DNA of 32,428 nucleotides from Mobula birostris (Eukaryota): positions 74,004,290 through 74,036,717 of the forward strand of contig NC_092402.1 of the NCBI RefSeq assembly GCF_030028105.1. Reading direction: 5' to 3'. The notes under the pieces are model-generated. The model saw nothing but the letters and a program-made list of their open reading frames with translations, was not told where the DNA came from and ran no database searches. The translations under genes were made by a program, and so were the position numbers. Below, one piece after another: positions 171 to 31,749 of this stretch. The number at the start of each line of letters is the position of its first letter. Within the stretch, counting starts at the first letter, position 1.

Positions 171-1770
171 TCATCATCATCACCATCATCAGGTGCCGTG
201 CCCAGTTTGAGCTTTGACTGCCATGGCCCACACACTCCTGTTTCGGGTCAAGTGGATCAATTCATTGGCATTCATTTCCAGTTCTCTGGCTGGGGTCTTC
301 ATCATCATTTGTCTTTGTCTTCTTCTTGCTTTCTTCTCTTCAATCTTTCCCATAATTACTGTGCATTCTAACTCCTTTTTCCTAATCACATGTCCAATGA
401 AGTTACGTTGCCTTTTCATGTTCTCATACATTATTTCTCTATTTGTGTTTGCTCTGTTCATGACATCCTCGTTAGATATTTGTTTCATCCATGATATTCT
501 TTCCATCCTCCACAAAAACCACATCTCTGCTGCTTCAATTCGTTTCCTCATGTTACTAGATATTGTCCAACATTCTGAGCCATATAACATAACTGGATAA
601 ATGTAACATTTCAGTACTCTGAGGCGGGTTGTCATGCCTAGTTTAGTATTGGTCAGTATACTCTTCATTCTCGTAAAGGTGTCTTTTGCCATCCCTATTC
701 TTCTTTTGATGTCCAAGTCGCACCTGCCATCTGATGTCACCCAGCTTCCTAAGTAGCAAAAGTTCTGTACTTGTTTTATGTCTTCCCCATTTATTCTCAG
801 CCTGCAGATAGGATTCTCCTTCCTTTTGGATATCACCATACATTCTGTCTTTTTGCAATTGATAGATAGACCCATTTTTGCACTTTCTTCAACAATTATA
901 TCAATTAAGTTTTGTAGTTCTTCCTCCATACTTGCAATTAACACAGTGTCATCTGCATATCTGAAATTATTGATGTTTTCACTGCCAACTTTGATTCCCA
1001 AGATGTCTCTTATTTTTTGTAATATTGTTTCACTGTACACATGAAATAAATCAGGGGAGAAAACACACCCTTGTCTAACTCCCCTCTTGATTTTCATAAA
1101 CTGACTCACCTCTCCATCTATTCTTACAGCGGCAGTTTGTTCCCAGTACAGATTTCTGATCAGGCAGAGGTCTTTCGAATCTAGATCTAGAATTTTCTGT
1201 AATATTTCTAATAACTTATTGTGCTTCACTTTATCAAATGCTTTTGTGGAGTTGATAAAACAAACAAACAAATCTTTTTGCACTTGAATAGCTCGTTCTG
1301 ATCGTATCCTTAACATCAATATTGCGTTTCTTGTACCTTTGTCTTTCACAAAACCACATTGTTCTTTACCTATTTCAGCGTGTATCTTACCTTTAGCTCT
1401 TGTCATCAAAATTCTTAGAAGTATCTTGGTGATATGACTCATTAAACTTATGGTCCTAAGTAATTCACATTCTATTGCTCCAGGTTTCTTAGGAAGAGTG
1501 ATAAATACTGATTTTTTTCATCTCTTCTGGTATTATTCCAGTCTCATAAATGTCATTGATTAAATCAGTAAGTTTTTCAATTCCATAATCTTTAAGAGTG
1601 ATAATTTGTTCTATTACTAATTCATCAGGACTTGCTGCCTTTCCTTTCTTCATCTTATTTATTGTATTACGAACTTCAGATTTTAAAATACTTGGACCTT
1701 CAACATTTTTCATAATTTCTGGTTTTTCACCTCGATTGTCTTCAAACAATTCCTGAATATACTCAGTCCA
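171..1770 (-). mobile_element. 5'-truncated RTE-clade LINE
   Basis: RT motifs GVRQGCVFSPDLF and YADD; RTE-type WTEYIQELF at the truncation point; (TGA)n tail. A 12-bp TSD with one mismatch flanks it: TCGCTATATACA 159-170 / TCACTATATACA 1771-1782. Confidence 0.9.
189..1770 (-). pseudogene. RTE reverse transcriptase, N-terminally truncated, one frameshift
   Basis: ORFs 1489-1749 and 189-1442 join through a frameshift in the T-run at about 1512-1519 (..EEMKK/KSVFITLPKKPGAIECELLRTISLMSH..). Confidence 0.85.
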
Positions 1771-6990: not shown

Positions 6991-8086
6991 ACACAATGTA
7001 GTATAATTTTCATTTTGCACTTTGAAATGATCATGTTTTCTTTGTTAAACCTTTTCAACATTAGTGCATGTTTTGTCGTGTTTTGTGCATATTTTAACTT
7101 TATATCTCAAATATATCCTTCATTTCCATCTCAAGAATGACTGAATTGGTATCTGGAAATTCATTCATCTGTTTGTGTGAGTATTGTATTTCTTCACTGA
7201 TCTCTTTAATATATGAAGCTAAATGGATAATCAGTGTCTGTTATTCATTGTCACATTAAGATTGGTTGATTTGATTAATTCACTCTTCTTTAGACTTTAA
7301 TATATTTAAGCGAAAGCTTAATCTGGATGTAGTGGTGGATGTGCTCTTAATAAACAAGTTAAGCAGCTCTTAGATAGATCTGTAGCTAAGGCATCAGCCT
7401 GCTAACTGCAGTGGAACCATTCTCCGTAGACAAGACCATGATCAGTTATAAGTATCACTGGCATAGCAAGAAGGAAATCTTTACTTGAGAATCTAAATCC
7501 TGATTATCAGATTGGCTTTATTGATTTTCTAAACTGAGAAAAAGGTTTGATTCTAAATTAGTAGCATTAGCTTCTATAATCATGTCTTGAATAAAATTTA
7601 ATCTCATGCAATATCCTTCCTTTCAGCAACTGAGCCCAACCAATTTCTAGATTTTCTTTGCGAAGGCAGGTGTTTAGTCCAAACCTTCACTAAGTGTTTG
7701 ACCACACTGATCGCTGCATTATCTAGATCCTGGGGCTATGGGATATTTTGAGAGTTCTTTGTCCACATAATACGTTTTTAATTCTAGTTTTGTAGAGGGT
7801 GCTGACATTTTTAGATATTGAGGAAGCCAATCCTCGATAGGGCAGAGATATATGTGAGGGACAGATTTGTGAAAATGCAAACTTCTGAAACTGACAAAGA
7901 TGTGCCTGCTTCTGGTCCAGCTGTGGCATATTTGGATAGAGCCAGGCATCCCATTTGGCCAAGAGTTGTCCATGGTACATTTGTTAATCACATAACCACA
8001 AAATAATCTGCAGATGCTGGGGTCAAAGCAACACTCACAACACACTGGAGGAACTCAGCAGGTCTGGCAGCATCCATGGAAACGAA

Positions 8087-8124
8087 CAGTCAACGTTTCG
8101 GGCCAGAACCCTTCGTCAGGACTG
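8087..8124 (-). ncRNA. Minimal type I hammerhead ribozyme motif
   Basis: Minus strand CAGTC-CTGACGA-AGGGTTCTGGCCC-GAAA-CGTT-GACTG: perfect stem I, both core boxes, GGG/CCC stem II and palindromic AACGTT stem III. Confidence 0.85.
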
Positions 8125-8388
8125 AAGAGGGAAGGGGCAGAGGCCCTATAAAGAAGGTGGGGGGAGGGTGGGAAGGAGAAGGCTGGTAGGTTCCAGGTGA
8201 AAAACCAGTACGGAGACAGATAAAGGGGTGGGGGAGGGGAGGCAGGGAGGGGATAGGCAGGAAAGGTGAAGAAGGAATAGGGGAAAACACAATGGGTAGT
8301 AGAAGGAGGCAGAACCATGAGGGAGGTGATAGGCAGCTGGGGGAGGGGGCAGAGTGAAACTGGGATGGGGGACAGGAGGGGGAGGGAA

Positions 8389-9617
8389 TTACCGGAAGTT
8401 GGAGAATTCAATGTTCATACCAAGGGGCTGGAGACTACCCAGATGGTATGTGAGGTTTTGCTCCTCCAACTTGAGCTTAGCTTCATCATGGCAGTAGAGG
8501 AGGCCATGTATGGACATATCTGAATGGGAGTGGGAAGCAGAGTTGAAGTGGGTGGCAACTGGGAGATCCTGTCTGTTGTGGCAGACGGAGCGGAGGTACT
8601 CGACGAAGCGGTCCCCCAATCTGCGTCGGGTTTTACCGATGTAGAGGAGGCCGCACTGGGAGCACCGGATGCAATAGGTGACCCCAACAGACTCAGAAGT
8701 GAAGTGTTGCCTCACCTGGAAGGACTGTTTGGGGCCCTGAATGGTGACAGGAGAGGAGGTGTAGGGACAGGTGTGGCACTTACGCTTACAGGGATAAATG
8801 CTGGGTGGGGATCCGTGTGGATCAGGGAGTCGCGGAGGGACCGATCCCTGGGGAAAGCAGAGAGGGGTGGAGAGGGAAAGATGTGCTTAGTGGTGGGGAC
8901 CTGTTGAAGGTGGCGGAAGTTGCGGAGGATAATGTGCTGGATCCGGAGGCTGGTGGGGTGGTAGGTGAGTACAAGGGGAACTCCGTCCCTGTTGTGGTGG
9001 TGGGAGGATGGGGTGAGGGCCGAAGTGCGGGAAATGGAGGAGATGCGGGTGAGGGCATCATTGATGACAGCAGAAGGGAAACCATGATCCTTAAAGATAG
9101 AGGACATTTGAGATGGCCTGGAAAGGAAAGCCTCATCCTGGGAGCAGATGCAGCGGAGACGGAGGAACTGGGAATAGGGAATGGCATTTTTGCATGTGGC
9201 GGGGTGGGAAGAGGTATAGTTGAGGTAGTTATGAGAGTCAATGGGCTTGTAGAAGATGTCAGTGGACAGTCTGTCTCCAGAGATGGAGACCGAGAAATCG
9301 AGAAAGGGGAGAGAAGTGTCTGAGATAGACCAAGTGAATTTGAGGGCTGGGTGGAAGTTAGAAGTAAAGTCGATGAAATTGATGAGCTCAGCATGGGTGC
9401 AGGAAGCAGCACCAATGTAGTCATCAATGTACTGAAGGAAAAGTTGGGGAGCAGTACCAGTATAGGTTTGCAGCATAGACTGTTCCACATAACCAACAAA
9501 GAGGCAGGCATAGCTGGGGCCCATGCGAGTGCCCATAGCTACACCCTTGGTCTGAAGAAAGTGGGAAGAGCCAAAAGAGAAGTTATTAAGTGTGAGTACC
9601 AGTTCCGCCAACCGGAC
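8389..9617 (-). pseudogene. PLE polyprotein remnant: RT C-terminal half, Cys linker, GIY-YIG endonuclease
   Basis: RT motifs GVAMGTRMGPSYACLFVG and QYIDD; thumb FYKPIDSHNYLNYTSSHP; after a frameshift, PCKRKCHTCP linker and VTYCIRCSQCGLLYIGKTRRRLGDRF GIY-YIG. Confidence 0.9.
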
Positions 9618-9884
9618 ACACAATACAGGATCTCCCGGTTGCCACCCACTTCAACTCTGCTTCACATTCCCATTTGGATATGTCCATACATGGCCTACTC
9701 TACTACCATGATGAGGCTAAACTCAGGATGGAGGAGCAACACCTCATATACCGTCGAGGTAGTCTCCAGCCCCTTGGTATGAACATAGAATTACATAGAA
9801 ACATAGAAAATAGGTGCAGGAGTAGGCCATTAGGCCCTTCGAGCCTGCACTGCCATTTATTATGATCATGGCTGATCATCCAAC

Positions 9885-12800
9885 TCAGAACACCGCCCCA
9901 GCCTTCCCTCCATACCCCCTGACCCCCGTAGCCACAAGGGCCATATCTAACTCCCTCTTAAATATAGCCAATGAACTGGCCTCAACTGTTTCCTGTGGCA
10001 GAGAATTCCACAGATTCACCACTCTCTGTGTGAAGAAGTTTTTCCTAATCTCAGTCCTAAAAGGCGTCCCCTCTATCCTCAAACTGTGACCCCTCGTTCT
10101 GGACTTCCCCAACATCGGGAACAATCTTCCTGCATCTAGCCTGTCCAATCCCTTTAGGATCTTATACGTTTCAATCAGATCCCCCCTCAATCTTCTAAAT
10201 TCCAACGAGTACAAGCCCAGTTCATCTATTCTTTCTTCATATGAAAGTCCTGCCATCCCAGGAATCAATCTGGTGAACCTTCTCTGTACTCCCTCTATGG
10301 CAAGGATGTCTTTCCTCAGATTAGGGGACCAAAACTGCACACAATACTCCAGATGTGGTCTCACCAAGGCCTTGTACAACTGCAGTAGTACCTCCCTGCT
10401 CCTGTACTCACATCCTCTCGCTATAAATGCCAGCATACCATTCGCCTTTTTCACCGCCTGCTGTACCTGCATGCCCACTTTCAATGACTGGTGTATAATG
10501 ACACCCAGGTCACGTTGCACCTCCCCTTTTCCTAATCGGCCACCATTCAGATAATAACCTGTTTTCCTATTTTTGCCACCAAAATGGATAACTTCACATT
10601 TATCCACATTAAATTGCATCTGCCATGAATTTGCCCACTCACCCAACCTATCCAAGTCACCCTGCATCCTCTTAGCATCCTCCTCACAGCTAACACTGCC
10701 ACCCAGCTTCGTGTCATCCGCAAACTTGGAGATGCTGCATTTAATTCCCTCATCCAAGTCATTAATATATATTGTAAACAACTGGGGTCCCAGCACTGAG
10801 CCTTGTGGTACCCCACTAGTCACCGCCTGCCATTCTGAAAAGGTCCCGTTTATTCCCACTCTTTGCTTCCTGTCTGCTAACCAACTCTCCACCCACACCA
10901 ATACCTTACCCCCAATACCGTGTGCTTTAAGTTTGCACACTAATCTCCTGTGTGGGACCTTGTCAAAAGCCTTCTGAAAATCCAAATATACCACATCCAC
11001 TGGTTCTCCCCTGTCCACTCTACTAGTTACATCCTCAAAAAATTCTATGAGATTCGTCAGACATGATTTTCCTTTCACAAATCCATGCTGACTTTGTCCG
11101 ATCATTTCACCACTTTCCAAATGTGCTGTTATCACATCCTTGTTAACTGACTCCAGCAGTTTCCCCACCACCGACGTTAGGCTAACCGGTCTATAATTCC
11201 CCGGTTTCTCTCTCCCTCCTTTTTTAAAAAGTGGAGTTACATTAGCCACCCTCCAATCCTCAGGAACTAGTCCAGAATCTAACGAGTTTTGAAAAATTAT
11301 CACTAATGCATCCACTATTTCTTGGGCTACTTCCTTAAGCACCCTGGGATGCAGACCATCTGGCCCTGGGGATTTATCTGCCTTCAATCCCTTCAATTTA
11401 CCTAACACCACTTCCCTACTAACATGTATTTCGCTCAGTTCCTCCATCTCACTGGACCCTCTGTCCCCTACTATTTCCGGAAGATTATTTATGTCCTCCT
11501 TAGTGAAGACAGAACCAAAGTAATTATTCAATTGGTCTGCCATGTCCTTGCTCCCCATAATCAACTCACCTGTTTCTGCCTGCAGGGGACCTACATTTGT
11601 CTTTACCAGTCTTTTCCTTTTTACATATCTATAAAAGCTTTTACAGTCCGTTTTTATGTTGCCTGCCAGTTTTCTCTCATAATCTTTTTTCCCCTTCCTA
11701 ATTAAGCCCTTTGTCCTCCTCTGCTGAACTCTGAATTTCTCCCAGTCCTCAGGTGAGTCACTTTCTCTGGCTAATTTGTATGCTTCTTCTTTGGAATTGA
11801 TACTATCCCTAATTTCTCTTGTCAGCCACGGGTGCACTACCTTCCTTGATTTATTCTTTTGCCAAACAGGGATGAACATTTGTTGCAGTTCATCCATGCA
11901 ACCTTTAAATGCTTGCCATTGCATATCCACCGTCAATCCTTTAAGTGTCATTTGCCAGTCTATCTTAGCTAATTCACGTCTCATACCTTCAAAGTTACCC
12001 CTCTTTAAGTTCAGAACCTTTGTTTCTGAATTAACTATGTCACTCTCCATCTTAATGAAGAATTCCACCATATTATGGTCACTCTTACCCAAGGGGCCTC
12101 TCATGACAAGATTGCTAATTAACCCTTCCTCATTGCTCAAAACCCAGTCCAGAATAGCCTGCTCTCTAGTCGGTTCCTCGACATGTTGGTTCAAAAAACC
12201 ATCCCACATACATTCCAAGAAATCCTCTTCCTCAGCACCTTTACCAATTTGGTTCAGCCAATCTACATGTAGATTGAAGTCACCCATTATAACTGCTGTT
12301 CCTTTATTGCACACATTTCTAATTTCCTGTTTAATACCATCTCCGACCTCACTACTACTGTTAGGTGGCCTGTACACAACTCCCACCAGCGTCTTCTGCC
12401 CCTTAGTGTTACGCAGCTCTACCCATATCGATTCCACATCTTCCCGGCTTATGTCCTTCCTTTCTATTGCGTTAATCTCTTCTTTAACCAGCAACGCCAC
12501 CCCACCTCCCCTTCCTTCATGTCTATCCCTCCTGAATATTGAATATCCCTGAACATTGAGCTCCCATCCTTGGTCACCCTGGAGCCATGTCTCTGTGATC
12601 CCAACTATATCATAATCATTAATAACAATCTGCACTTTCAATTCATCCACCTTATTACGAATGCTCCTTGCATTGACACACAAAGCCTTCAGGCGCTCTT
12701 TTACAACTCTCTTAGCCCTTATACAATTATGCTGAAAAGTGGCCCCTTTTAATGCTTGCCCTGGATTTGTCGGCCTGCCACTTTTACTTTTCTCCATAGT

Positions 12801-12917
12801 ACTTTTTGTTTCTACCCTCACTTTACACCCCTCTGCCTCTCTGCACTGGTTCCCATCCCCCTGTAGTGAACTAACCTCCTCACGCCTAGCCTCATTAATT
12901 TGATTTCCACCCCCCAA
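9885..12917 (-). CDS. CR1 ORF2 protein (APE endonuclease + reverse transcriptase)
   Basis: 1010 codons with no stop. EN motifs NARS, GITETW, YRPP, MGDFN, SDH; RT motifs QHGF, YLDFQKAFD, GVPQGSVLGP, FADD. The listed start is TTG, the frame is open from 12938, and the first in-frame ATG is at 12797. Confidence 0.95.
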   Translation of the reverse strand: MGGGNQINEARREEVSSLQGDGNQCREAEGCKVRVETKSTMEKSKSGRPTNPGQALKGATFQHNCIRAKRVVKERLKALCVNARSIRNKVDELKVQIVINDYDIVGITETWLQGDQGWELNVQGYSIFRRDRHEGRGGGVALLVKEEINAIERKDISREDVESIWVELRNTKGQKTLVGVVYRPPNSSSEVGDGIKQEIRNVCNKGTAVIMGDFNLHVDWLNQIGKGAEEEDFLECMWDGFLNQHVEEPTREQAILDWVLSNEEGLISNLVMRGPLGKSDHNMVEFFIKMESDIVNSETKVLNLKRGNFEGMRRELAKIDWQMTLKGLTVDMQWQAFKGCMDELQQMFIPVWQKNKSRKVVHPWLTREIRDSINSKEEAYKLARESDSPEDWEKFRVQQRRTKGLIRKGKKDYERKLAGNIKTDCKSFYRYVKRKRLVKTNVGPLQAETGELIMGSKDMADQLNNYFGSVFTKEDINNLPEIVGDRGSSEMEELSEIHVSREVVLGKLKGLKADKSPGPDGLHPRVLKEVAQEIVDALVIIFQNSLDSGLVPEDWRVANVTPLFKKGGREKPGNYRPVSLTSVVGKLLESVNKDVITAHLESGEMIGQSQHGFVKGKSCLTNLIEFFEDVTSRVDRGEPVDVVYLDFQKAFDKVPHRRLVCKLKAHGIGGKVLVWVESWLADRKQRVGINGTFSEWQAVTSGVPQGSVLGPQLFTIYINDLDEGIKCSISKFADDTKLGGSVSCEEDAKRMQGDLDRLGEWANSWQMQFNVDKCEVIHFGGKNRKTGYYLNGGRLGKGEVQRDLGVIIHQSLKVGMQVQQAVKKANGMLAFIARGCEYRSREVLLQLYKALVRPHLEYCVQFWSPNLRKDILAIEGVQRRFTRLIPGMAGLSYEERIDELGLYSLEFRRLRGDLIETYKILKGLDRLDAGRLFPMLGKSRTRGHSLRIEGTPFRTEIRKNFFTQRVVNLWNSLPQETVEASSLAIFKRELDMALVATGVRGYGGKAGAVF

Positions 12918-12922
12918 CCATT

Positions 12923-13126
12923 CTATTTTAAAGTCACCTCAGTAGCCCCCGCTAATCTCCCTGCCAGGATATTGGTCCCCCTAGGATTCAAGTGCAACCC
13001 GTCCTTTTTGTACAGGTCACGCCTGCGCCAAAAGAGGTCCCAATGATCCAAAAACTTGAATCCCTGCCCCCTGCTCCAATCCCTCAGCCACGCATTTATC
13101 CTCCACCTCATCGCATTCCTACTCCT
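12923..13126 (-). pseudogene. CR1 ORF1 C-terminus (SGNH esterase-like)
   Basis: INAWLRDW..FLDHW..YKKDGLHLN carries the DxxH catalytic motif and is homologous to 28990-29172. Confidence 0.9.
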
Positions 13127-13411
13127 AAATTCTCCAACTTCCAGTAATTCCCTCCCCCTCCCTTCCTCTATCCCTATGTCACTCTGCCCCCTCCCCCAGC
13201 TGCCTACCACCTCCCTCATGGTTCCGCCTCCTTCTACTACCCATTGTGCTTTCCCCTATTCCTTCTTCACCTTTCCTGCTTATCCCCTCCCTGCCTCCCC
13301 TCCCCCATCCCTTTATCTTTCCCCTTACTGGTTTTTCACCTGGAACCTACCAGCCTTCTCCTTCCCACCCTCTCCCCACCTTCTTTATAGGGCCTCTGCG
13401 CCTTCCCCCTA

Positions 13412-13449
13412 CAGTCCTGACGAAGGGTTCCGGCCCGAAATGTCAACTC
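13412..13449 (+). ncRNA. Minimal hammerhead motif in the inverted PLE repeat (stems partly decayed)
   Basis: CAGTC-CTGACGA-AGGGTTCCGGCCC-GAAA-TGTC-AACTC. The core is intact; stems I and III carry mismatches. Confidence 0.7.
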
Positions 13450-13805
13450 ATCGTTTCCACGGATGCTGCCCGACCTGCTGAGTTCCTCCAGTGTGTTGTA
13501 AGTGTTGCTTTGTTAATCACATGCCATGTGTCACAAGATCTCCCTCCTTCGTGGCCACAGGAACAATCAAGAACTCTGCTCATTCCCACCTCCCCCAAGT
13601 ATCAGGTCTATGGTCTTCAGGATTGTTAAGGAATGGGAGTTGAGGGATATGGTAAGAATGCTGCAGATACCACTGGGAAATGCAATAAGAAGCTTGGGAG
13701 AATGAGTTAAATGAATTACAGGTGAGATATTTAACTTCTTGGGCTTGATGTATTTACTTCTAATTGCATGGTATCTTCTGTTGTTTAACTTTTGGTTTAA
13801 CACAG

Positions 13806-16917: not shown

Positions 16918-17440
16918 CACTGGAAAACAATTTTTTTTTTGGAAAATGCTGTTTCCTCAGAAATTTTTGTAGTTATGATAGACTGCTTGAAGCTCAACAC
17001 AAATATAATTTCAGACTTTTTGTATCATATAGGAATTTGGAGAAACAAGAAATTAACTTTTGTTGAATATAATGCATCTAATTGCATAGTGGTGCTGATC
17101 CTTTGCAATAGTTTAACTGAGCTAAAACTATTCTGTTGATGATTTTCATTTGTACTCAGTATCTGAGGCTTTTCACTTAAGTGTCCAACAATAATCAACC
17201 AGCATTGATGGATTCCAGTTGCCCTGATACCGGTTCTCCATGACTGCAATGTCCTGGTGAATCCTTTCACCATGCACGTCACTGACAGTGCCAAGATTTG
17301 CAGGGAAGAATTCTGAATGGGAATGCTGAAAACGAATCTTCAGTGACATGATGCATGTCATGGTTTTGAATGCTTGAAGCATGTTGTCAACCAGCTGCAT
17401 GTAGTTTGGTGCACTGAAATTTTTAACAACATCCTTGAAT
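16918..17440 (-). mobile_element. Chapaev3-like (CMC) DNA transposon, right end and transposase C-terminus
   Basis: Minus strand FKDVVKNF..MSLKIRFQHSHSEFFPANLGTVSDVHGERIHQDIAVMENRYQGNWNPSMLVDYCWTLK. The terminus CACTGGAAAACAA is preceded by TAA (TWA-type target). Confidence 0.7.
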
Positions 17441-18392
17441 GAAGTAGCTGGAGGGATTGTGGAGGTATTAATGATGATCTTTCAAGAATCAATAGATTCT
17501 GGCATTGTACCAGATGACTAGAAAATTTCAAATGTTACTCAGCTATTTAAGAAGGGTGGGAGGCAGCAGAAAGGAAACTTTAGACCTGTTAGCCTGACAT
17601 CAGTGGCTGGAAAGTTGTTGGAATTGATTGTTAAGGATGAGATTATGGAGTACCTGGAGGCACATGACAAGATAGGCCAAAGCCAGCATGGTTTCCTGAA
17701 AGGAAAATCCTGCCTGACAAACCTACTGCAATTTTTTGAGGAAATTACAAGCAGGGTAGACAAAGGAGATGCAGTTGATGTGGTGTACTTGGATTTTCGG
17801 AAGGCCTTTGACAAGGTGCCGCACGTGAGGCTGCTTGGAAAGATAAGAGCCCGTGGAATTACAGGGAAGTTACTAGCATGTGTGGAGCATTGACTGGTCG
17901 GCAGAAAACAGAGAGTGGGAATAAAGGGATCCTATTCTGGCTGGCTGCCGGTTACCAGTGGAGTTCCACAGGGGTCAGTGTTGGAACCGCTGGTTTTTAC
18001 GAGGTATGTCAATGATTTGGACTACAGTATTAATGGATTTTTGGCTAAATTTGCCAATGATACAAAGATAGGTGGATGAGCGGGTAGTGTTGAGGAAACA
18101 GGGAGACTTAGATAGTTCAGGGGACTGGGCAAGGAAGTGGCAAATGAAATACAATGTTGGAAAGTGTATAGTCATGCACTTTGGTGGAAGAAATAAACGG
18201 GCAGACTATTATTTAGATGGGGAGAGAATTCAAAATGTAGAGTTGCAAAGGGATTTGGGAGTCCTTGTGCAGGATACCCTAAAGGTTAACCTTTAGGTTG
18301 AGTCAGTGGTGAAGAAGGCAAATGCAATGTTGGCATTCATTTCTAGAGGTATAGAGTATAGGAACAGGGATGTGATCTGGAGGTATAGAATA

Positions 18393-22712: not shown

Positions 22713-22879
22713 GTCACAAGAGAAAATCTGCAGATGCTGAGAAATCCAGAGTAACGCACACAAAATGCTGGAGGAACTCAACAGGCCAGACAGCATCTAC
22801 GGAGAGGAATAAAGAGTTGACGTTTTGGGCCGAGACCCTTCAATAGGACCCGTTGAGCTCCTCCAGCATTTTGTGTATC
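22713..22879 (-). mobile_element. Miniature Penelope-derived element with inverted end and decayed hammerhead
   Basis: 11-bp TSD TTTTTGTTACC (22702-22712, 22880-22890). ACACAAAATGCTGGAGGAACTCAAC is inverted at the right end. Minus strand GTC-CTATTGA-AGGGTCTCGGCCC-AAAA-CGTC. Confidence 0.85.
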
Positions 22880-23556: not shown

Positions 23557-23696
23557 AAAACAACAGGAATTCTGCAGATGCTGGAAATCAAGCAACACAC
23601 ATCAAAGTTGCTGGTGAACGCAGCAGGCCAGGCAGCACCTCTTCCTACAGATGCTGCCTGGCCTGCTGCATTCACCAGCAACCTTGATGTGTGTAG
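23557..23696 (-). mobile_element. Miniature fold-back Penelope-derived element
   Basis: TSD GGAAATAATT (23547-23556, 23699-23708); 46-bp inverted arms at 23595-23640 and 23649-23694. Confidence 0.85.
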
Positions 23697-24038: not shown

Positions 24039-24046
24039 GTCTAGAG

Positions 24047-24950
24047 CAACACACACAAAATGCTGGAGGAACTCAGCAGGTCAGGCAGCATCCATGGGAA
24101 TGAACAAACCATTGACATTTTGGGCCAAAACGGTTCATCGGGACTGGAATGGAAAGGGGAAGATGTCAGAATAAGAAGGTGAGGGAGGGGAAGGATGACA
24201 AACTAGAAGGTGATAGGTGAAGCCAGGTGGGTGGGGGAGGGGGGGTTGAAGTAAGAAGCTAGGAGGTGATAGGTGGAAAAGGTAAAGGACCGGAGAAGAG
24301 GGAATCTAATAGGAGAGGAGAGTGGATCATGGGAGAAAGGGAGTGAGGGGCACAGGGGGGAGGAGATAGGCAGGTGAGTAGAAGAGAAGAGGTAAGGGAG
24401 GCAGAGTTGGGAAATGAAGAAGACCGAAGGGGAAGAGGGAAAAGAATTACCATAAATTGGAGAAATCAGTATTCATGCCATCAGGCTGGAGGCTACCCAG
24501 ATGGAATATGAGGTGTTGCACCTTCAGTCTGATAGTGACCTCATTGTGGCAGTAGACGAACTTTATGGAATGGGAATGGTGATTGGAATTGAAATGGCCA
24601 CTGGGAAATCCTGTTTTTCGCAGATTGAGTGAGGGTGCTTGAGGGAGCAGTTCTCACCAATGCAGAGGAGGCCACATCAGGAGCATTGGGCACAGTAGAC
24701 GACCCCAGCAGATTCGCTGGTGAAGTGTTCTCTCACCTGGAAGGACAGTTTGGGGCTCTGAATGGAGGTGAGGGAGGAGATGAATGGGCAGGTTTAGCAT
24801 TTCTACCACTTAGGTGTATGGGCAGATGTGGAACTTTGGCCGCTTGGAGGAATAAGTGCCGGGGGGAGATTAGTGGGGAGAGACAAATGGACAAAGGAAT
24901 CATGGAGGGAGCCATCCCTACGAAAAGTGGAGAGCGACAGGGAGGGAGGT
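24047..24950 (-). mobile_element. Older degenerate Penelope-like fragment (3' repeat, GIY-YIG, linker)
   Basis: Colinear with 8025-8880; decayed hammerhead at ~24110-24148; many indels. Confidence 0.85.
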
Positions 24951-28121: not shown

Positions 28122-29172
28122 ATGTGTGTGAGGCCGGTGTTCTGTTCTAGGTGTCAGATGTGGGAAGTCCTGGAGTCTCCCAGCCTCCCGGACAGCCATA
28201 TCTGTACCCGGTGTGTCGAGCTGCAGCTCCTAAAGGACCGCATTAGGGAACTGGAGTTGCATCTCGATGACCTTCGTCTGGTCAGGGAGAAAGAGGAGGA
28301 GAAAGGAGTTATAGGCAGGTGGTCACATCGGGGCCACGGAAGACAGATATGTGAGTCACAGTCAGGAGAGGGAAGGGGAAGAGTCAGATACTAGAGGGTG
28401 CCCCTGTGGCTGCCTCCCCCCCCCTTAACAATAAGTACTGTTGGGGGGGAGACGGCCTACCTGGGGGAAGCAACAGTGGTCACACCCCTGGCACAGAGTC
28501 TGGCCCAGTGGCCCAGAAGGGTAGGGAAAGGAAGAGGATGGCAGTAGTGACAGGGGACTCTATAGTTAGGGAGTCAGACAGACGATTCTGTGGATGCATG
28601 AAAGAAACACAGATGGTAGTTTGCCTTCCAGGTGCCAGTGTCCAGGATGTTTCTGATCGTGTCCATGATATCCTGAAGTGGGAAGGAGAACAGCTAGAGG
28701 TTGTGGTACATATTGGTACCAACGACCTAGGTAGGAAAAGAGAAGAGGTCCTGAAAACAGACTACAGGGAATTAGGAAGAAGGTTGAGAAGCAGGACCAC
28801 AAAAGTCCTCACTAAGGGTCTCACCCCGAAACGTCGACTGTACCTCTTCCTATAGATGCTGCCTGGCCTGCTGTGTTCTACCAGCATTTTGTGTGCGTTG
28901 CTTGAGTTTCCAGCATCTACAGATTTTCTGGTGTTTGCATTTGTAAAGGTAGTAATCTCGGGATTACTGCCTGTGCCACGCGACAGTGAGTATAGGAATA
29001 GAATGAGGTGGAGGATAAATGCGTGGCTGAGGGATTGGAGCAGGGGGCAGGGATTCAGATTTGTGGATCACTGGGACCTCTTTGGGGGCAGGTGTGACCT
29101 GTACAAAAAGGACAGGACCCCAATATCCTGGTGGGGAGGTTTTCTAAGGCTATTGGGGAGAGTTTAAACTAG
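28122..29172 (+). pseudogene. CR1 ORF1 (Zn finger/leucine zipper + SGNH esterase), frameshifted
   Basis: CSRC..CTRC, LKDRIRELELHLDDL, VVTGDSIVR, VVHIGTND. It ends NILVGRFSKAIGESLN-TAG at 29170-29172. Confidence 0.88.
28806..28944 (+). mobile_element. Short Penelope 3'-repeat insertion (hammerhead-led) inside CR1 ORF1
   Basis: AGTC-CTCACTA-AGGGTCTCACCCC-GAAA-CGTC-GACT followed by GATGCTGCCTGGCCTGCTG..CCAGCATCTACAGA. AAAG flanks both sides (28802-28805, 28945-28948). Confidence 0.85.
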
Positions 29173-31749
29173 AATTGTTGGGGGGTGGGAACCGAACTGA
29201 GGAGACTGGGGAAGAGGCGGTTGACTCACAAATAGAGAAAGTTGGAGACAGTGCGAGAGGGAGGATAGGTAGGTGATAGAGAAGGGACGTGCTCAGACGG
29301 GCAGTTTGAGATGGAGAATTGTGAACAAAGCGGATGAGCTTAGAGTATGGATCAGTACTTGGAGCTATGATGTGGTGGCCATTACAGAGACTTGGATGGC
29401 TCAGGGACGGGGATGGTTACTTCAAGTTTTAGATGTTTCAGAAAGGACAGGGAGGGAGGAAAAAGAGGTGGGGGCGTGGCACTGTTGATCAGAGATAGTA
29501 TCACGGCTGCAGAAAAGGAGAAAGTCATGAAGGGATTGTCTATGGAGTCTCTGTGGGTGGAGGTTAGGAACAGGAAGGGGTCAATAACTCTAATGGGTGT
29601 TTTTTATAGGCCGCCCAATAGTAACAAGGATATCGAGGATCAGGTAGGGAAACAGATCCTGGAAAGGTGAGTAAGGGGAATTATGAGGCTACCAGGCAGG
29701 AACCTGGAAGCTTAAATTGGGAACAGATGTTCTCAAGGAAAGGTACAGAAGAAATGTGGCAAATATTTAGGGGATATTTGTGTGGAGTTCTGCATAGGTA
29801 CGATCCAATGAGACAGGGAAGTTATGGTAGGGTACAGGAACCGTGGTGTACAAAGGCTGTAGTAAATCTAGACAAGAAGAAAAGAAAAGCTTACAAAAGG
29901 TTTAGAGAGCTAGGTAATGTTAGAGATCTAGAAGATTATAAGGCTGACAGGAAGGAGCTTAAGAATGAAATTAGGAGAGCCAGAAGGGGCCATGAGAAGG
30001 CCTTGGTGGGCAGGATTAAGGAAAACCCCAAGGCATTCTACAAGTATGTGAACAGCAAGAGGATAAGACTTAAAAGAATAGGACCAATCAAGTGTGACAG
30101 TGGGAAAGTGTGTATGGAACAGGAGGAAATAGCAGAGGTACTTAATGAATACTTTACTTCAGTATTCACTATGGAAAAGGATCTTGGTGATTGTAGTGAT
30201 GACTTGCAGCAGACTGAAAAGCTTGAGCATATAGACATTAAGAAAGAGGATGTGCTGGAGCTTTTGGAAAGCATCAAGTTGGATAAGTCACTGGGACCGG
30301 ATGAGATATATCCCAGGCTACTGTGGGATGTGAGGGAGGAAATTGCTGAGCCTCTGGTGATGATCTTTGCAGCATCAATGGCGACGGGAGAGGTTCTGGA
30401 GGATTGGAGGGTTGTGGATGTTGTTCCCTTATTCAAGAAAGGGAGTAGAGATAGCCCAGGAAATTATAGGCCAGTGAGTCTTACTTCAGTGGTTGGCAAG
30501 TTGATGGAGAAGATCCTGAGAGGCAGGATTTATGAACATTTGGAGAGGTATAATATGATTAGGAATAGTCAGCATGGCTTTGTCAAAGGCAGGTCATGCC
30601 TTACGAGCCTGATTGAATTTTTTGAGGATGTGACTAAACACATTGATGATGGTAGAGCAGTAGATGTAGTGTATATGGATTTTAGCAAGGCATTTGACAA
30701 GGTACCCCATGCAAGGCTTATTGAGAAAGTAAGGAGGCATGGGATCCAAGAGGACATTACCTTGTGGATCCAGAACTGGCTTGGCCACAGAAGGCAAAGA
30801 GTGGTTGTAGACAGGTCATATTCTGCATGGAGGCCAGTGACCAGTGGTGTGCCTCAGGGATCTGTTCTGGGACCCTTCGTGATTTTTATAAATGACCTGG
30901 ATGAGGAAGTGGATTGATGTGTTAGTAAGTTTGCTGATGACATTAAGTTTGGGTGTGTTCTGGATAGTGTGGATGGCTGCCAGAGGTTACAGCAGGACAT
31001 TGATAGGATGCAAAACTGGGCTGAGAAGTGGCGGATGGAGTTCAAGCCCAGATAAGCGTGAAGTGGATCATTTTGGTAGGTCAAATATGATGGCAGAATA
31101 TAGTATTAATGGTAAGATTCTTGGCAGTGTGGAGGATCAGAGGGATCTTGGGGTCCGAGTCCATAGGACACTCAAAGCATCTGCACAGGTTGACTCTGTG
31201 GTTAAGAAGGCATATGGTGTATTGGCCTTCATCAATCATGGAATTGAATTTAGGAGACAAGAGGTAATGTTGCGGCTATGTAGGACCCTGGTCAGGCCCC
31301 ACTTGGAGTACTGTGCTCAGTTCTGGTCACCTTACTATAGGAAGGATGTGGAAACCATAGAAAGGGTGCAGTGGAGATTTACAAGGATGTTGCCTGGATT
31401 GGGGAGCATGCCTTATGAAAACAGGTTGAGTGAACTCGGCCTTTTCTCCTTTGAGCGACAGAGGATGAGAGGTGACCTGATAGAGCTGTATAAGATGATG
31501 AGAGGCGTTGATCGTGTGGATAGTCAGAGGCTTTTTCCCAGGGCTGAAATGGCTAGCATGAGAGGGCACAGTTTTAAGGTGCTTGGAAGTAGGTACAAAG
31601 GAGATATCAGGGGTAAGTTTTTTCACACAGAGAGTGGTGAGTGTGTGGAATGGGCTGCGGCAACGGTGGTGGAGGCAGATACGATAGGGTCTTTTAAGAG
31701 ACTTTTGGATAGGTACATGGAACTGAGTAAAATAGAGGGCTATGGGTAA
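29163..31749 (+). pseudogene. CR1 ORF2 (EN partly deleted near 29667, RT), with frameshifts and stops
   Basis: VAITETW, FYRPP, QHGFVKGRSC, YMDFSKAFD, GVPQGSVLGP and FADD distributed over several ORFs. Confidence 0.9.

What the first reader, a model, noticed from the sequence alone, without database searches (positions are those of the whole stretch)
12895..12941. Candidate -1 programmed ribosomal frameshift joining CR1 ORF1 to ORF2 (copy 1)
Seen: ORF1 ends ACT TTA AAA TAG. The X_XXY_YYZ heptamer U_UUA_AAA (12932-12926) is correctly phased and directly precedes the stop. A -1 slip gives TTT AAA ATA GAA TGG TTG GGG GGT GGA AAT (FKIEWLGGGN), exactly the intact ORF2 frame, which opens only two codons earlier. 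The first ORF2 AUG is about 40 codons downstream (12797). Known: such heptamers drive gag-pol and coronavirus -1 frameshifts, whereas ORF2 of studied LINEs such as L1 and SART1 is attributed to reinitiation or translational coupling. Inference: CR1 may make a gag-pol-like ORF1-ORF2 fusion. I cannot confirm whether this has been published, and I see no convincing stimulatory pseudoknot, only a G-rich tract downstream.
Basis: partly seen in the sequence, partly recalled or inferred. Interest (0 to 1): 0.8.

Follow-up and report, generated by a model that had tools for sequence, protein, structure and literature searches.

The report
Ribosome slip site in CR1 retrotransposons
A very common jumping gene of rays, birds, reptiles and some invertebrates ends its first gene on the same seven-letter 'slippery' signal that coronaviruses use, which suggests it makes its copying enzyme by a programmed ribosome slip; I found no report of this for such elements.

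Summary
Observation confirmed. The window copy is dead (5'-truncated, inside a Penelope element) and its U_UUA_AAA is private: 29 of 30 family loci read U_UUA_AAC, then the stop. The signal is family-wide. 133 of 187 ORF1 homologues end Leu-Asn, 11 Gly-Asn (9 Gln-Gly-Asn), 3 Lys-Asn, fitting U_UUA_AAC, G_GGA_AAC and A_AAA_AAC (codons of the last two classes not seen). In 19 hand-picked lineages the codons are TTA-AAC in 19, while other conserved Leu columns use one codon in 20-71%. ORF2 is in the -1 frame in 62 of 74 scoreable copies, and five lineages have no in-frame AUG before the endonuclease. No stimulatory fold was found (mean z about 0); a G-run starts 10 nt behind the heptamer at wobble positions. 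Best reading: -1 programmed frameshift giving an ORF1-ORF2 fusion (0.8), inferred, not assayed. Ten searches found no paper saying this; key older CR1 papers were not readable. This scan noted a like junction before on other DNA (e1-7814081).

The parts
12926..12932 (-). Slippery heptamer U_UUA_AAA (family form U_UUA_AAC), last codons of ORF1
12923..12925 (-). ORF1 stop (TAG; TAA in 4 of 19 lineages) directly after the heptamer
12910..12915 (-). G-run starting 10 nt after the heptamer; position conserved, candidate stimulator
   Evidence: G at stop+10 in 18 of 18, +11 to +13 in 17 of 18 each; wobble positions
12923..13124 (-). Remnant of ORF1 (end of the SGNH esterase); the copy is 5'-truncated at 13124
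9885..12938 (-). ORF2 frame, 1017 codons: 82-codon linker, AP-endonuclease from about 12680, reverse transcriptase
12795..12797 (-). First in-frame AUG of ORF2 in this family; not conserved in other families
9782..9813 (-). 3' tail of 8-bp repeats (3.9 copies)
13128..13512 (+). Part of the inverted terminal repeat of a Penelope-like element into which copy 1 inserted (other part 9617-9792)
   Evidence: self-alignment; frames 8389-9650
29163..29172 (+). Copy 2 (another family, 77% identical around the junction): U_UUA_AAC then TAG, G-run at 29180-29185

Best explanation
Esterase-type CR1 elements express ORF2 by -1 programmed ribosomal frameshifting. Ribosomes translate ORF1 to its last two codons (UUA AAC). 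Most terminate at the adjacent stop and release ORF1p. A minority slip back one base on U_UUA_AAC, read the stop as part of a Leu codon, and continue through an unconserved linker of 35-106 codons into endonuclease and reverse transcriptase, giving an ORF1p-ORF2p fusion in a fixed ratio, as in gag-pol. Shown: heptamer, phase, synonymous-site constraint, open linker, no conserved AUG, positioned G-run. Inferred: the slip, the fusion, and that slow termination and the G-run (bound by a protein, or acting on the ribosome) supply the pause.
For: Codon fixation: TTA 19 of 19, AAC 19 of 19, T before them 18 of 19 (the 19th is G_UUA_AAC, a form Atkins 2016 lists for equine arteritis virus); other conserved Leu columns top out at 20-71% one codon, background TTA 0.14, AAC 0.31. 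Copies chosen by an HMM that omits the ORF1 end: 93 of 112 strict heptamers. Proteins: 145 of 187 ends are compatible with a strict heptamer against 1-63 of 187 at 29 shifted positions; among 133 Leu-Asn enders the residue before is K/E/Q/M/W (no U-ending codon) in 2, against 49 one place earlier; Gln is at that place in 9 of 11 Gly-Asn enders and 0 of 133 Leu-Asn enders. Leu-Asn stays terminal though its distance from the esterase core varies from 5 to 22 residues. The three classes match three of the four shiftiest eukaryotic heptamers named in PMC5009743. Phase -1 in 62 of 74; no AUG before the endonuclease motif in ray family B, L126, L063, L066, L068; 0 stops in 394 codons between stop and first Met in 15 picked lineages, while the other two frames hold 132 stops over 799 linker codons. 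Set found through ORF2: 12 esterase loci, 11 TTTAAAC-TAG, 1 TTTAAAG-TAG (about two families).
Against: No experiment. No stimulatory structure: mean folding z -0.01 (60 nt, 18 loci) and 0.28 (100 nt, 17 loci); a quadruplex is predicted in 3 of 18; no recurring long-range partner. 42 of 187 homologue ends are not heptamer-compatible (clade and DNA unknown). 12 of 74 copies are out of phase, including 5 of 21 rows of one family that share a 16-nt linker deletion between direct repeats. Three bird-like lineages have an in-frame AUG three codons after the slip site and L094 has an overlapping UAAUG, as reinitiation would use. Representatives were hand-picked from copies with an intact end and are related, so the counts are not independent. 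No in-frame ORF1-ORF2 fusion among 5 longer hits (weak). Related non-esterase elements L199 and L203 have ORF2 in +1.
Confidence: 0.8

Rival explanations
1. Termination-reinitiation (SART1- or L1-like): ribosomes stop at the ORF1 stop and restart in the -1 frame, with or without AUG; the TTTAAAC-stop-N7-G-run motif is the reinitiation signal and ORF2p is a separate protein.
For: The mechanism reported for the studied LINEs (passages of PMC2881922; PMC3708506); L1 ORF2 tolerates loss of its AUG (PMC1965478 passage). AUG at codon 2-3 in L061, L064, L071, L094. No fold downstream.
Against: Gives no reason for the X_XXY_YYZ pattern or for its exchange between U_UUA, G_GGA and A_AAA forms; AUG is absent or up to 44 codons away in most lineages, yet the frame is open from the heptamer on; the -1 frame opens upstream of the heptamer in all 19 lineages.
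Confidence: 0.12
2. The conserved end is a protein constraint (a C-terminal Leu-Asn needed by ORF1p), and the heptamer is a by-product of shared descent.
For: Asn is last in 155 of 187 homologues; the Leu could close the last esterase helix.
Against: Synonymous fixation, exclusion of residues without U-ending codons one place upstream, Gly replacing Leu together with Gln before it, and variable distance from the fold.
Confidence: 0.04
3. The motif works at RNA or DNA level outside decoding: a splice acceptor, polymerase slippage that restores frame in the mRNA, or a protein-binding or packaging site.
For: TAG-ending forms look like YAG acceptors; nucleotide-level conservation fits any RNA element.
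Against: 4 of 19 lineages have TAA and no AG there; strict codon phasing to ORF1 and exchange among slippery heptamers point to decoding. RNA could not be tested.
Confidence: 0.04

Closest known systems
-1 programmed frameshift of retroviral gag-pol and coronavirus 1a/1b (IBV U_UUA_AAC; PMC5009743, passages)
   Same: X_XXY_YYZ heptamer at the end of a structural/RNP ORF, polymerase ORF in -1, zero-frame stop close behind.
   Different: Host is a non-LTR element; no pseudoknot or hairpin 5-9 nt downstream; an unstructured G-run at 10 nt; no protease in ORF2 to cut the fusion (none in Pfam scan).
Protein-stimulated frameshifts of arteriviruses (nsp1beta with PCBP) and cardioviruses (PMC5009743, passages)
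   Same: Short conserved motif at a long spacer (11-14 nt quoted there; 10 nt here).
   Different: Motif here is G-rich; no binding protein is known; only a lead.
ORF2 translation of L1 and SART1 (PMC2881922, PMC3708506, passages)
   Same: Bicistronic LINE RNA, ORF2 dependent on ORF1 translation.
   Different: Those use reinitiation (UAAUG or AUG-independent) and give a separate ORF2p; here a heptamer and a constant -1 phase are conserved, AUG is not.
Frameshift mentions in other non-LTR elements: HeT-A gag (PMC5009743); Paramecium groups 1-2, +1 shift or reinitiation suggested (PMC5405496)
   Same: Frameshifting invoked in a non-LTR element.
   Different: Not CR1, not a -1 heptamer joining ORF1 to RT.
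CR1 subgroup with type IV esterase ORF1 (PMC4120745, PMC3905857, passages)
   Same: Zinc finger/leucine zipper plus SGNH esterase ORF1, APE-RT ORF2.
   Different: The word 'frameshift' occurs 0 times in PMC3905857; the passages of PMC4120745 that I saw do not discuss ORF2 translation. Esterase-type relatives also turn up in invertebrate-like contigs here.

Membership tests
-1 programmed ribosomal frameshift | X_XXY_YYZ heptamer in phase with the upstream ORF | tested here: met
-1 programmed ribosomal frameshift | Downstream ORF in -1 frame, open across the heptamer | tested here: met
   (62 of 74)
-1 programmed ribosomal frameshift | Conservation at synonymous positions | tested here: met
-1 programmed ribosomal frameshift, structure-stimulated subtype | 3' pseudoknot or stem-loop 5-9 nt downstream | tested here: not met
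   ViennaRNA does not model pseudoknots, but no stable stem was seen
-1 programmed ribosomal frameshift | Some stimulator (structure, protein-bound motif, slow codon) | tested here: inconclusive
   positioned G-run and adjacent stop are conserved; function unknown
-1 programmed ribosomal frameshift | Trans-frame product and measurable shift rate | not testable with these tools
   needs reporter, MS or ribosome profiling
CR1 LINE, esterase type | ORF1 with Cys motif, coiled coil and SGNH esterase | tested here: met
   family copies; the window copy keeps only the end
CR1 LINE, esterase type | ORF2 with APE and RT | tested here: met
CR1 LINE, esterase type | 8-bp repeat tail instead of poly(A) (feature recalled) | tested here: met
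CR1 LINE, esterase type | RT phylogeny with named CR1 references | tested here: inconclusive
   groups with bird-like loci at SH-aLRT 99 in a quick tree; no named reference was in the tree
Termination-reinitiation (SART1 type) | Conserved overlapping or adjacent stop-start | tested here: not met
   Met within 3 codons in 4 of 19 lineages

The most novel reading that the evidence does not exclude
Probability: 0.25. Interest if true: 0.9.

Novelty: new variant of a known kind. Interest (0 to 1): 0.75.

Why it matters
How LINEs translate ORF2 is described as unclear in the reviews I read, and reinitiation is the only tested answer. A -1 frameshift in CR1 would add a second, retrovirus-like solution: the RT would be tethered to the esterase ORF1p in a fixed ratio, which bears on particle assembly and cis preference. 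It would move the true start of CR1 ORF2p, so constructs that begin at the first AUG would be truncated or, in five lineages, lack the first endonuclease strand. The signal is about 25 nt long and directly testable in a reporter, and the structure-free G-run may be a new kind of stimulator.

Tried and rejected
Local stimulatory fold: none. Long-range partner for the G-run: top duplexes fall at different places in 13 elements; a C-rich stretch about 650-690 nt upstream in ORF1 recurs in L005, L158, L061, L071 but not in L063, and may only reflect Pro codons. Quadruplex: 3 of 18, and invertebrate-like loci have a single G-run. DNA for Gln-Gly-Asn elements: not obtained (searches found nothing; one search gave no names), so G_GGA_AAC and the Lys-Asn class rest on protein only. 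No ORF1 relatives in viral contigs or phages; 5 distant RT hits in viral contigs were not analysed. RNA: no RNA holder on record listed; four contig sets of uncertain kind showed no listed indel at the heptamer and only scattered joints, which I do not count either way. Splice acceptor: rejected on TAA lineages. Literature: searches gave no paper on a CR1 frameshift; Kojima 2005, Kapitonov and Jurka 2003 and a recalled DOI for the 1997 turtle CR1 paper were not held; Haas 1997 seen only as a reference title; Repbase not available. The careful tree did not finish; the quick tree was used. Rows dropped: 67 of 254 proteins (52 without the esterase end, 15 ending outside 5-25 residues); 14 of 126 domains; L089 (frame-broken end) left out of the 19; 24 of 98 copies had no scoreable endonuclease motif.

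Full report
Observation. On the - strand ORF1 ends ACT TTA AAA TAG (12934-12923), with the heptamer at 12932-12926. The -1 frame runs open from 12938 to 9885 and encodes AP-endonuclease and RT. The window lies in a 4.0-Gb genome; the nearest named ORF1 is from a ray, 95% identical. A strict heptamer precedes 11 of 3258 stop triplets in the window, and occurs in phase once in ORF1 (its last codons) and never in ORF2.

State of this copy. It matches a full-length sibling at 98.6% only from 13124 down, ends in an 8-bp repeat tail, and sits inside the inverted terminal repeat of a Penelope-like element. It cannot translate its own ORF1. Its AAA is private: 29 of 30 loci read TTT AAA C-TAG. Copy 2 in the window, another family, has the same heptamer, stop and G-run; 24 of the 26 siblings printed do too (many are duplicates on one contig).

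Protein-level test. ORF1 homologues came from two searches and include named sharks, rays, coelacanth, frogs, turtles, squamates and a bird. Of 254 proteins, 187 end 5-25 residues after an esterase HMM that omits the terminus. 133 end Leu-Asn, 11 Gly-Asn, 3 Lys-Asn; 145 are compatible with a strict heptamer, against 1-63 at shifted positions; 42 are not. The residue before Leu-Asn avoids K/E/Q/M/W, which lack U-ending codons (2 of 133, against 49 of 133 one place earlier), while Gly-Asn is preceded by Gln in 9 of 11. This is the covariation that U_UUA_AAC against G_GGA_AAC predicts. I could not get DNA for the Gly-Asn class.

DNA-level test. Junctions came from five ray query families and from host DNA in metagenomes. 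93 of 112 copies with an intact end have a strict heptamer. In 19 representatives that I picked, the last codons are TTA AAC in all, and the base before is T in 18 and G in 1; other conserved Leu columns use their top codon in 20-71%. The stop varies (15 TAG, 4 TAA). The representatives are related, so p-values are only indicative.

Phase and linker. Of 98 copies with the core motif, 74 could be scored: 62 have the endonuclease motif in -1, 8 in +1, 4 in 0. Five rows of one older family share a 16-nt deletion between direct repeats in the linker; they carry mixed subfamily alleles, which suggests recurrent loss (my reading), and the deletion lies behind that family's AUG, so it breaks both models alike. 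The linker is 35-106 codons and unconserved but open from the heptamer. First Met falls at codon 2-44, and is missing before the endonuclease in ray family B, L126, L063, L066 and L068. In 15 picked lineages the other two frames hold 132 stops over 799 codons.

Independent set. An ORF2 query in prokaryote assemblies returned animal contaminant contigs. Of 25 loci with the ORF2 start and upstream DNA, 12 have an esterase: 11 end TTTAAAC-TAG and 1 TTTAAAG-TAG; 10 are in -1 phase, and 2 are shifted by a changed G-run length. They amount to about two families. Non-esterase relatives are mixed: L200 ends A_AAU_UUA-UAG in -1, L201 A_AGU_UUU-UAA in -1, L183 has A_AAA_AAC 23 codons before its stop with a Met-free -1 frame leading into the endonuclease, while L199 and L203 are +1. 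In a quick tree the esterase-heptamer elements fall in one 13-row group (support 91) that also holds L183.

Stimulator. No stable fold follows the site and no partner recurs at long range. A G-run begins 10 nt after the heptamer: G at stop+10 in 18 of 18, always a third position (CAG, AAG, TTG, AGG, GGG), followed by GGG in 15 of 18, against 30% third-position G further on. That is nucleotide-level constraint. Atkins 2016 gives 5-9 nt spacers for structures and 11-14 nt for arterivirus and cardiovirus shifts, so a protein-bound motif is a fair guess and no more. That an adjacent stop slows the ribosome here is inference.

Mechanism. Most ribosomes terminate and make ORF1p; some slip -1 on U_UUA_AAC and make an ORF1p-linker-EN-RT fusion (0.8). 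Reinitiation (0.12) is the main rival: it is the tested route in SART1 and L1, and four lineages have a Met within three codons. Protein-only constraint and RNA-level roles get 0.04 each.

What is in print. I saw passages only (term look-ups) of PMC5009743 (first 300,000 of 449,034 characters; 'CR1' 0 times, LINE ORF2 put down to unusual initiation), PMC11835228 (first 300,000 characters), PMC2881922, PMC1965478, PMC5405496, PMC3708506, PMC4120745, PMC3905857, PMC5408684 and PMC4255032; no supplements. None of these passages links CR1 to frameshifting. Ten searches found no such paper, but the library lacks the original CR1 descriptions and Repbase, where an overlap or a frameshift may have been suggested.

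Verdict. Real, family-wide and far beyond chance; it works like a gag-pol -1 frameshift by sequence evidence, fails the test for a structure-stimulated site, and awaits an assay. New variant of a known kind; interest 0.75.

Noticed in passing
window 8024-9792 and 13128-13512: Copy 1 inserted into the inverted terminal repeat of a Penelope-like element, at a site that itself resembles the CR1 8-bp tail, with a possible 4-bp duplication.
   Followed up: partly
window 28807-28944: Copy 2's ORF1 is interrupted by a short repeat-derived insert with matches at 22721-22840, 23558-23640 and 24045-24100.
   Followed up: no
L183 3265-3271: CR1-group element with a non-esterase ORF1 has A_AAA_AAC in phase and a Met-free -1 frame running into the endonuclease; no significant fold behind it.
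   Followed up: partly
L200 2425-2434; L201 2152-2161: Two related elements with Cys-rich (PHD-like, by eye) ORF1 end on A_AAU_UUA-UAG and A_AGU_UUU-UAA with ORF2 in -1; sister loci L199 and L203 are +1.
   Followed up: partly
P0115, P0196, P0215, P0247, P0195, P0254, P0212: Some ORF1 homologues that do not end in Asn have FF, FL, DF or GF within their last residues, which could be U-rich heptamers a few codons before the stop; DNA not available.
   Followed up: no
L149, L150, L151, L154, L160: Shared 16-nt frame-breaking deletion between direct repeats in the ORF2 linker of one ray family.
   Followed up: partly
L169-L248; P0020: Many prokaryote assemblies, including named isolates, hold animal CR1-type DNA, and one ORF1 is labelled Pseudomonas aeruginosa: host or laboratory contamination.
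   Followed up: no
L061-L103, L171-L239: Esterase-type ORF1 occurs in contigs that look invertebrate, whereas PMC4120745 found this ORF1 type only in vertebrate subgroups; hosts not identified.
   Followed up: no
window 189-1517 (-), 17522-17893 (+), 17173-17481 (-): Other decayed repeats: an RT frame of a different LINE type, a further CR1-like ORF2 piece, and a transposase-like frame (labels by eye).
   Followed up: no
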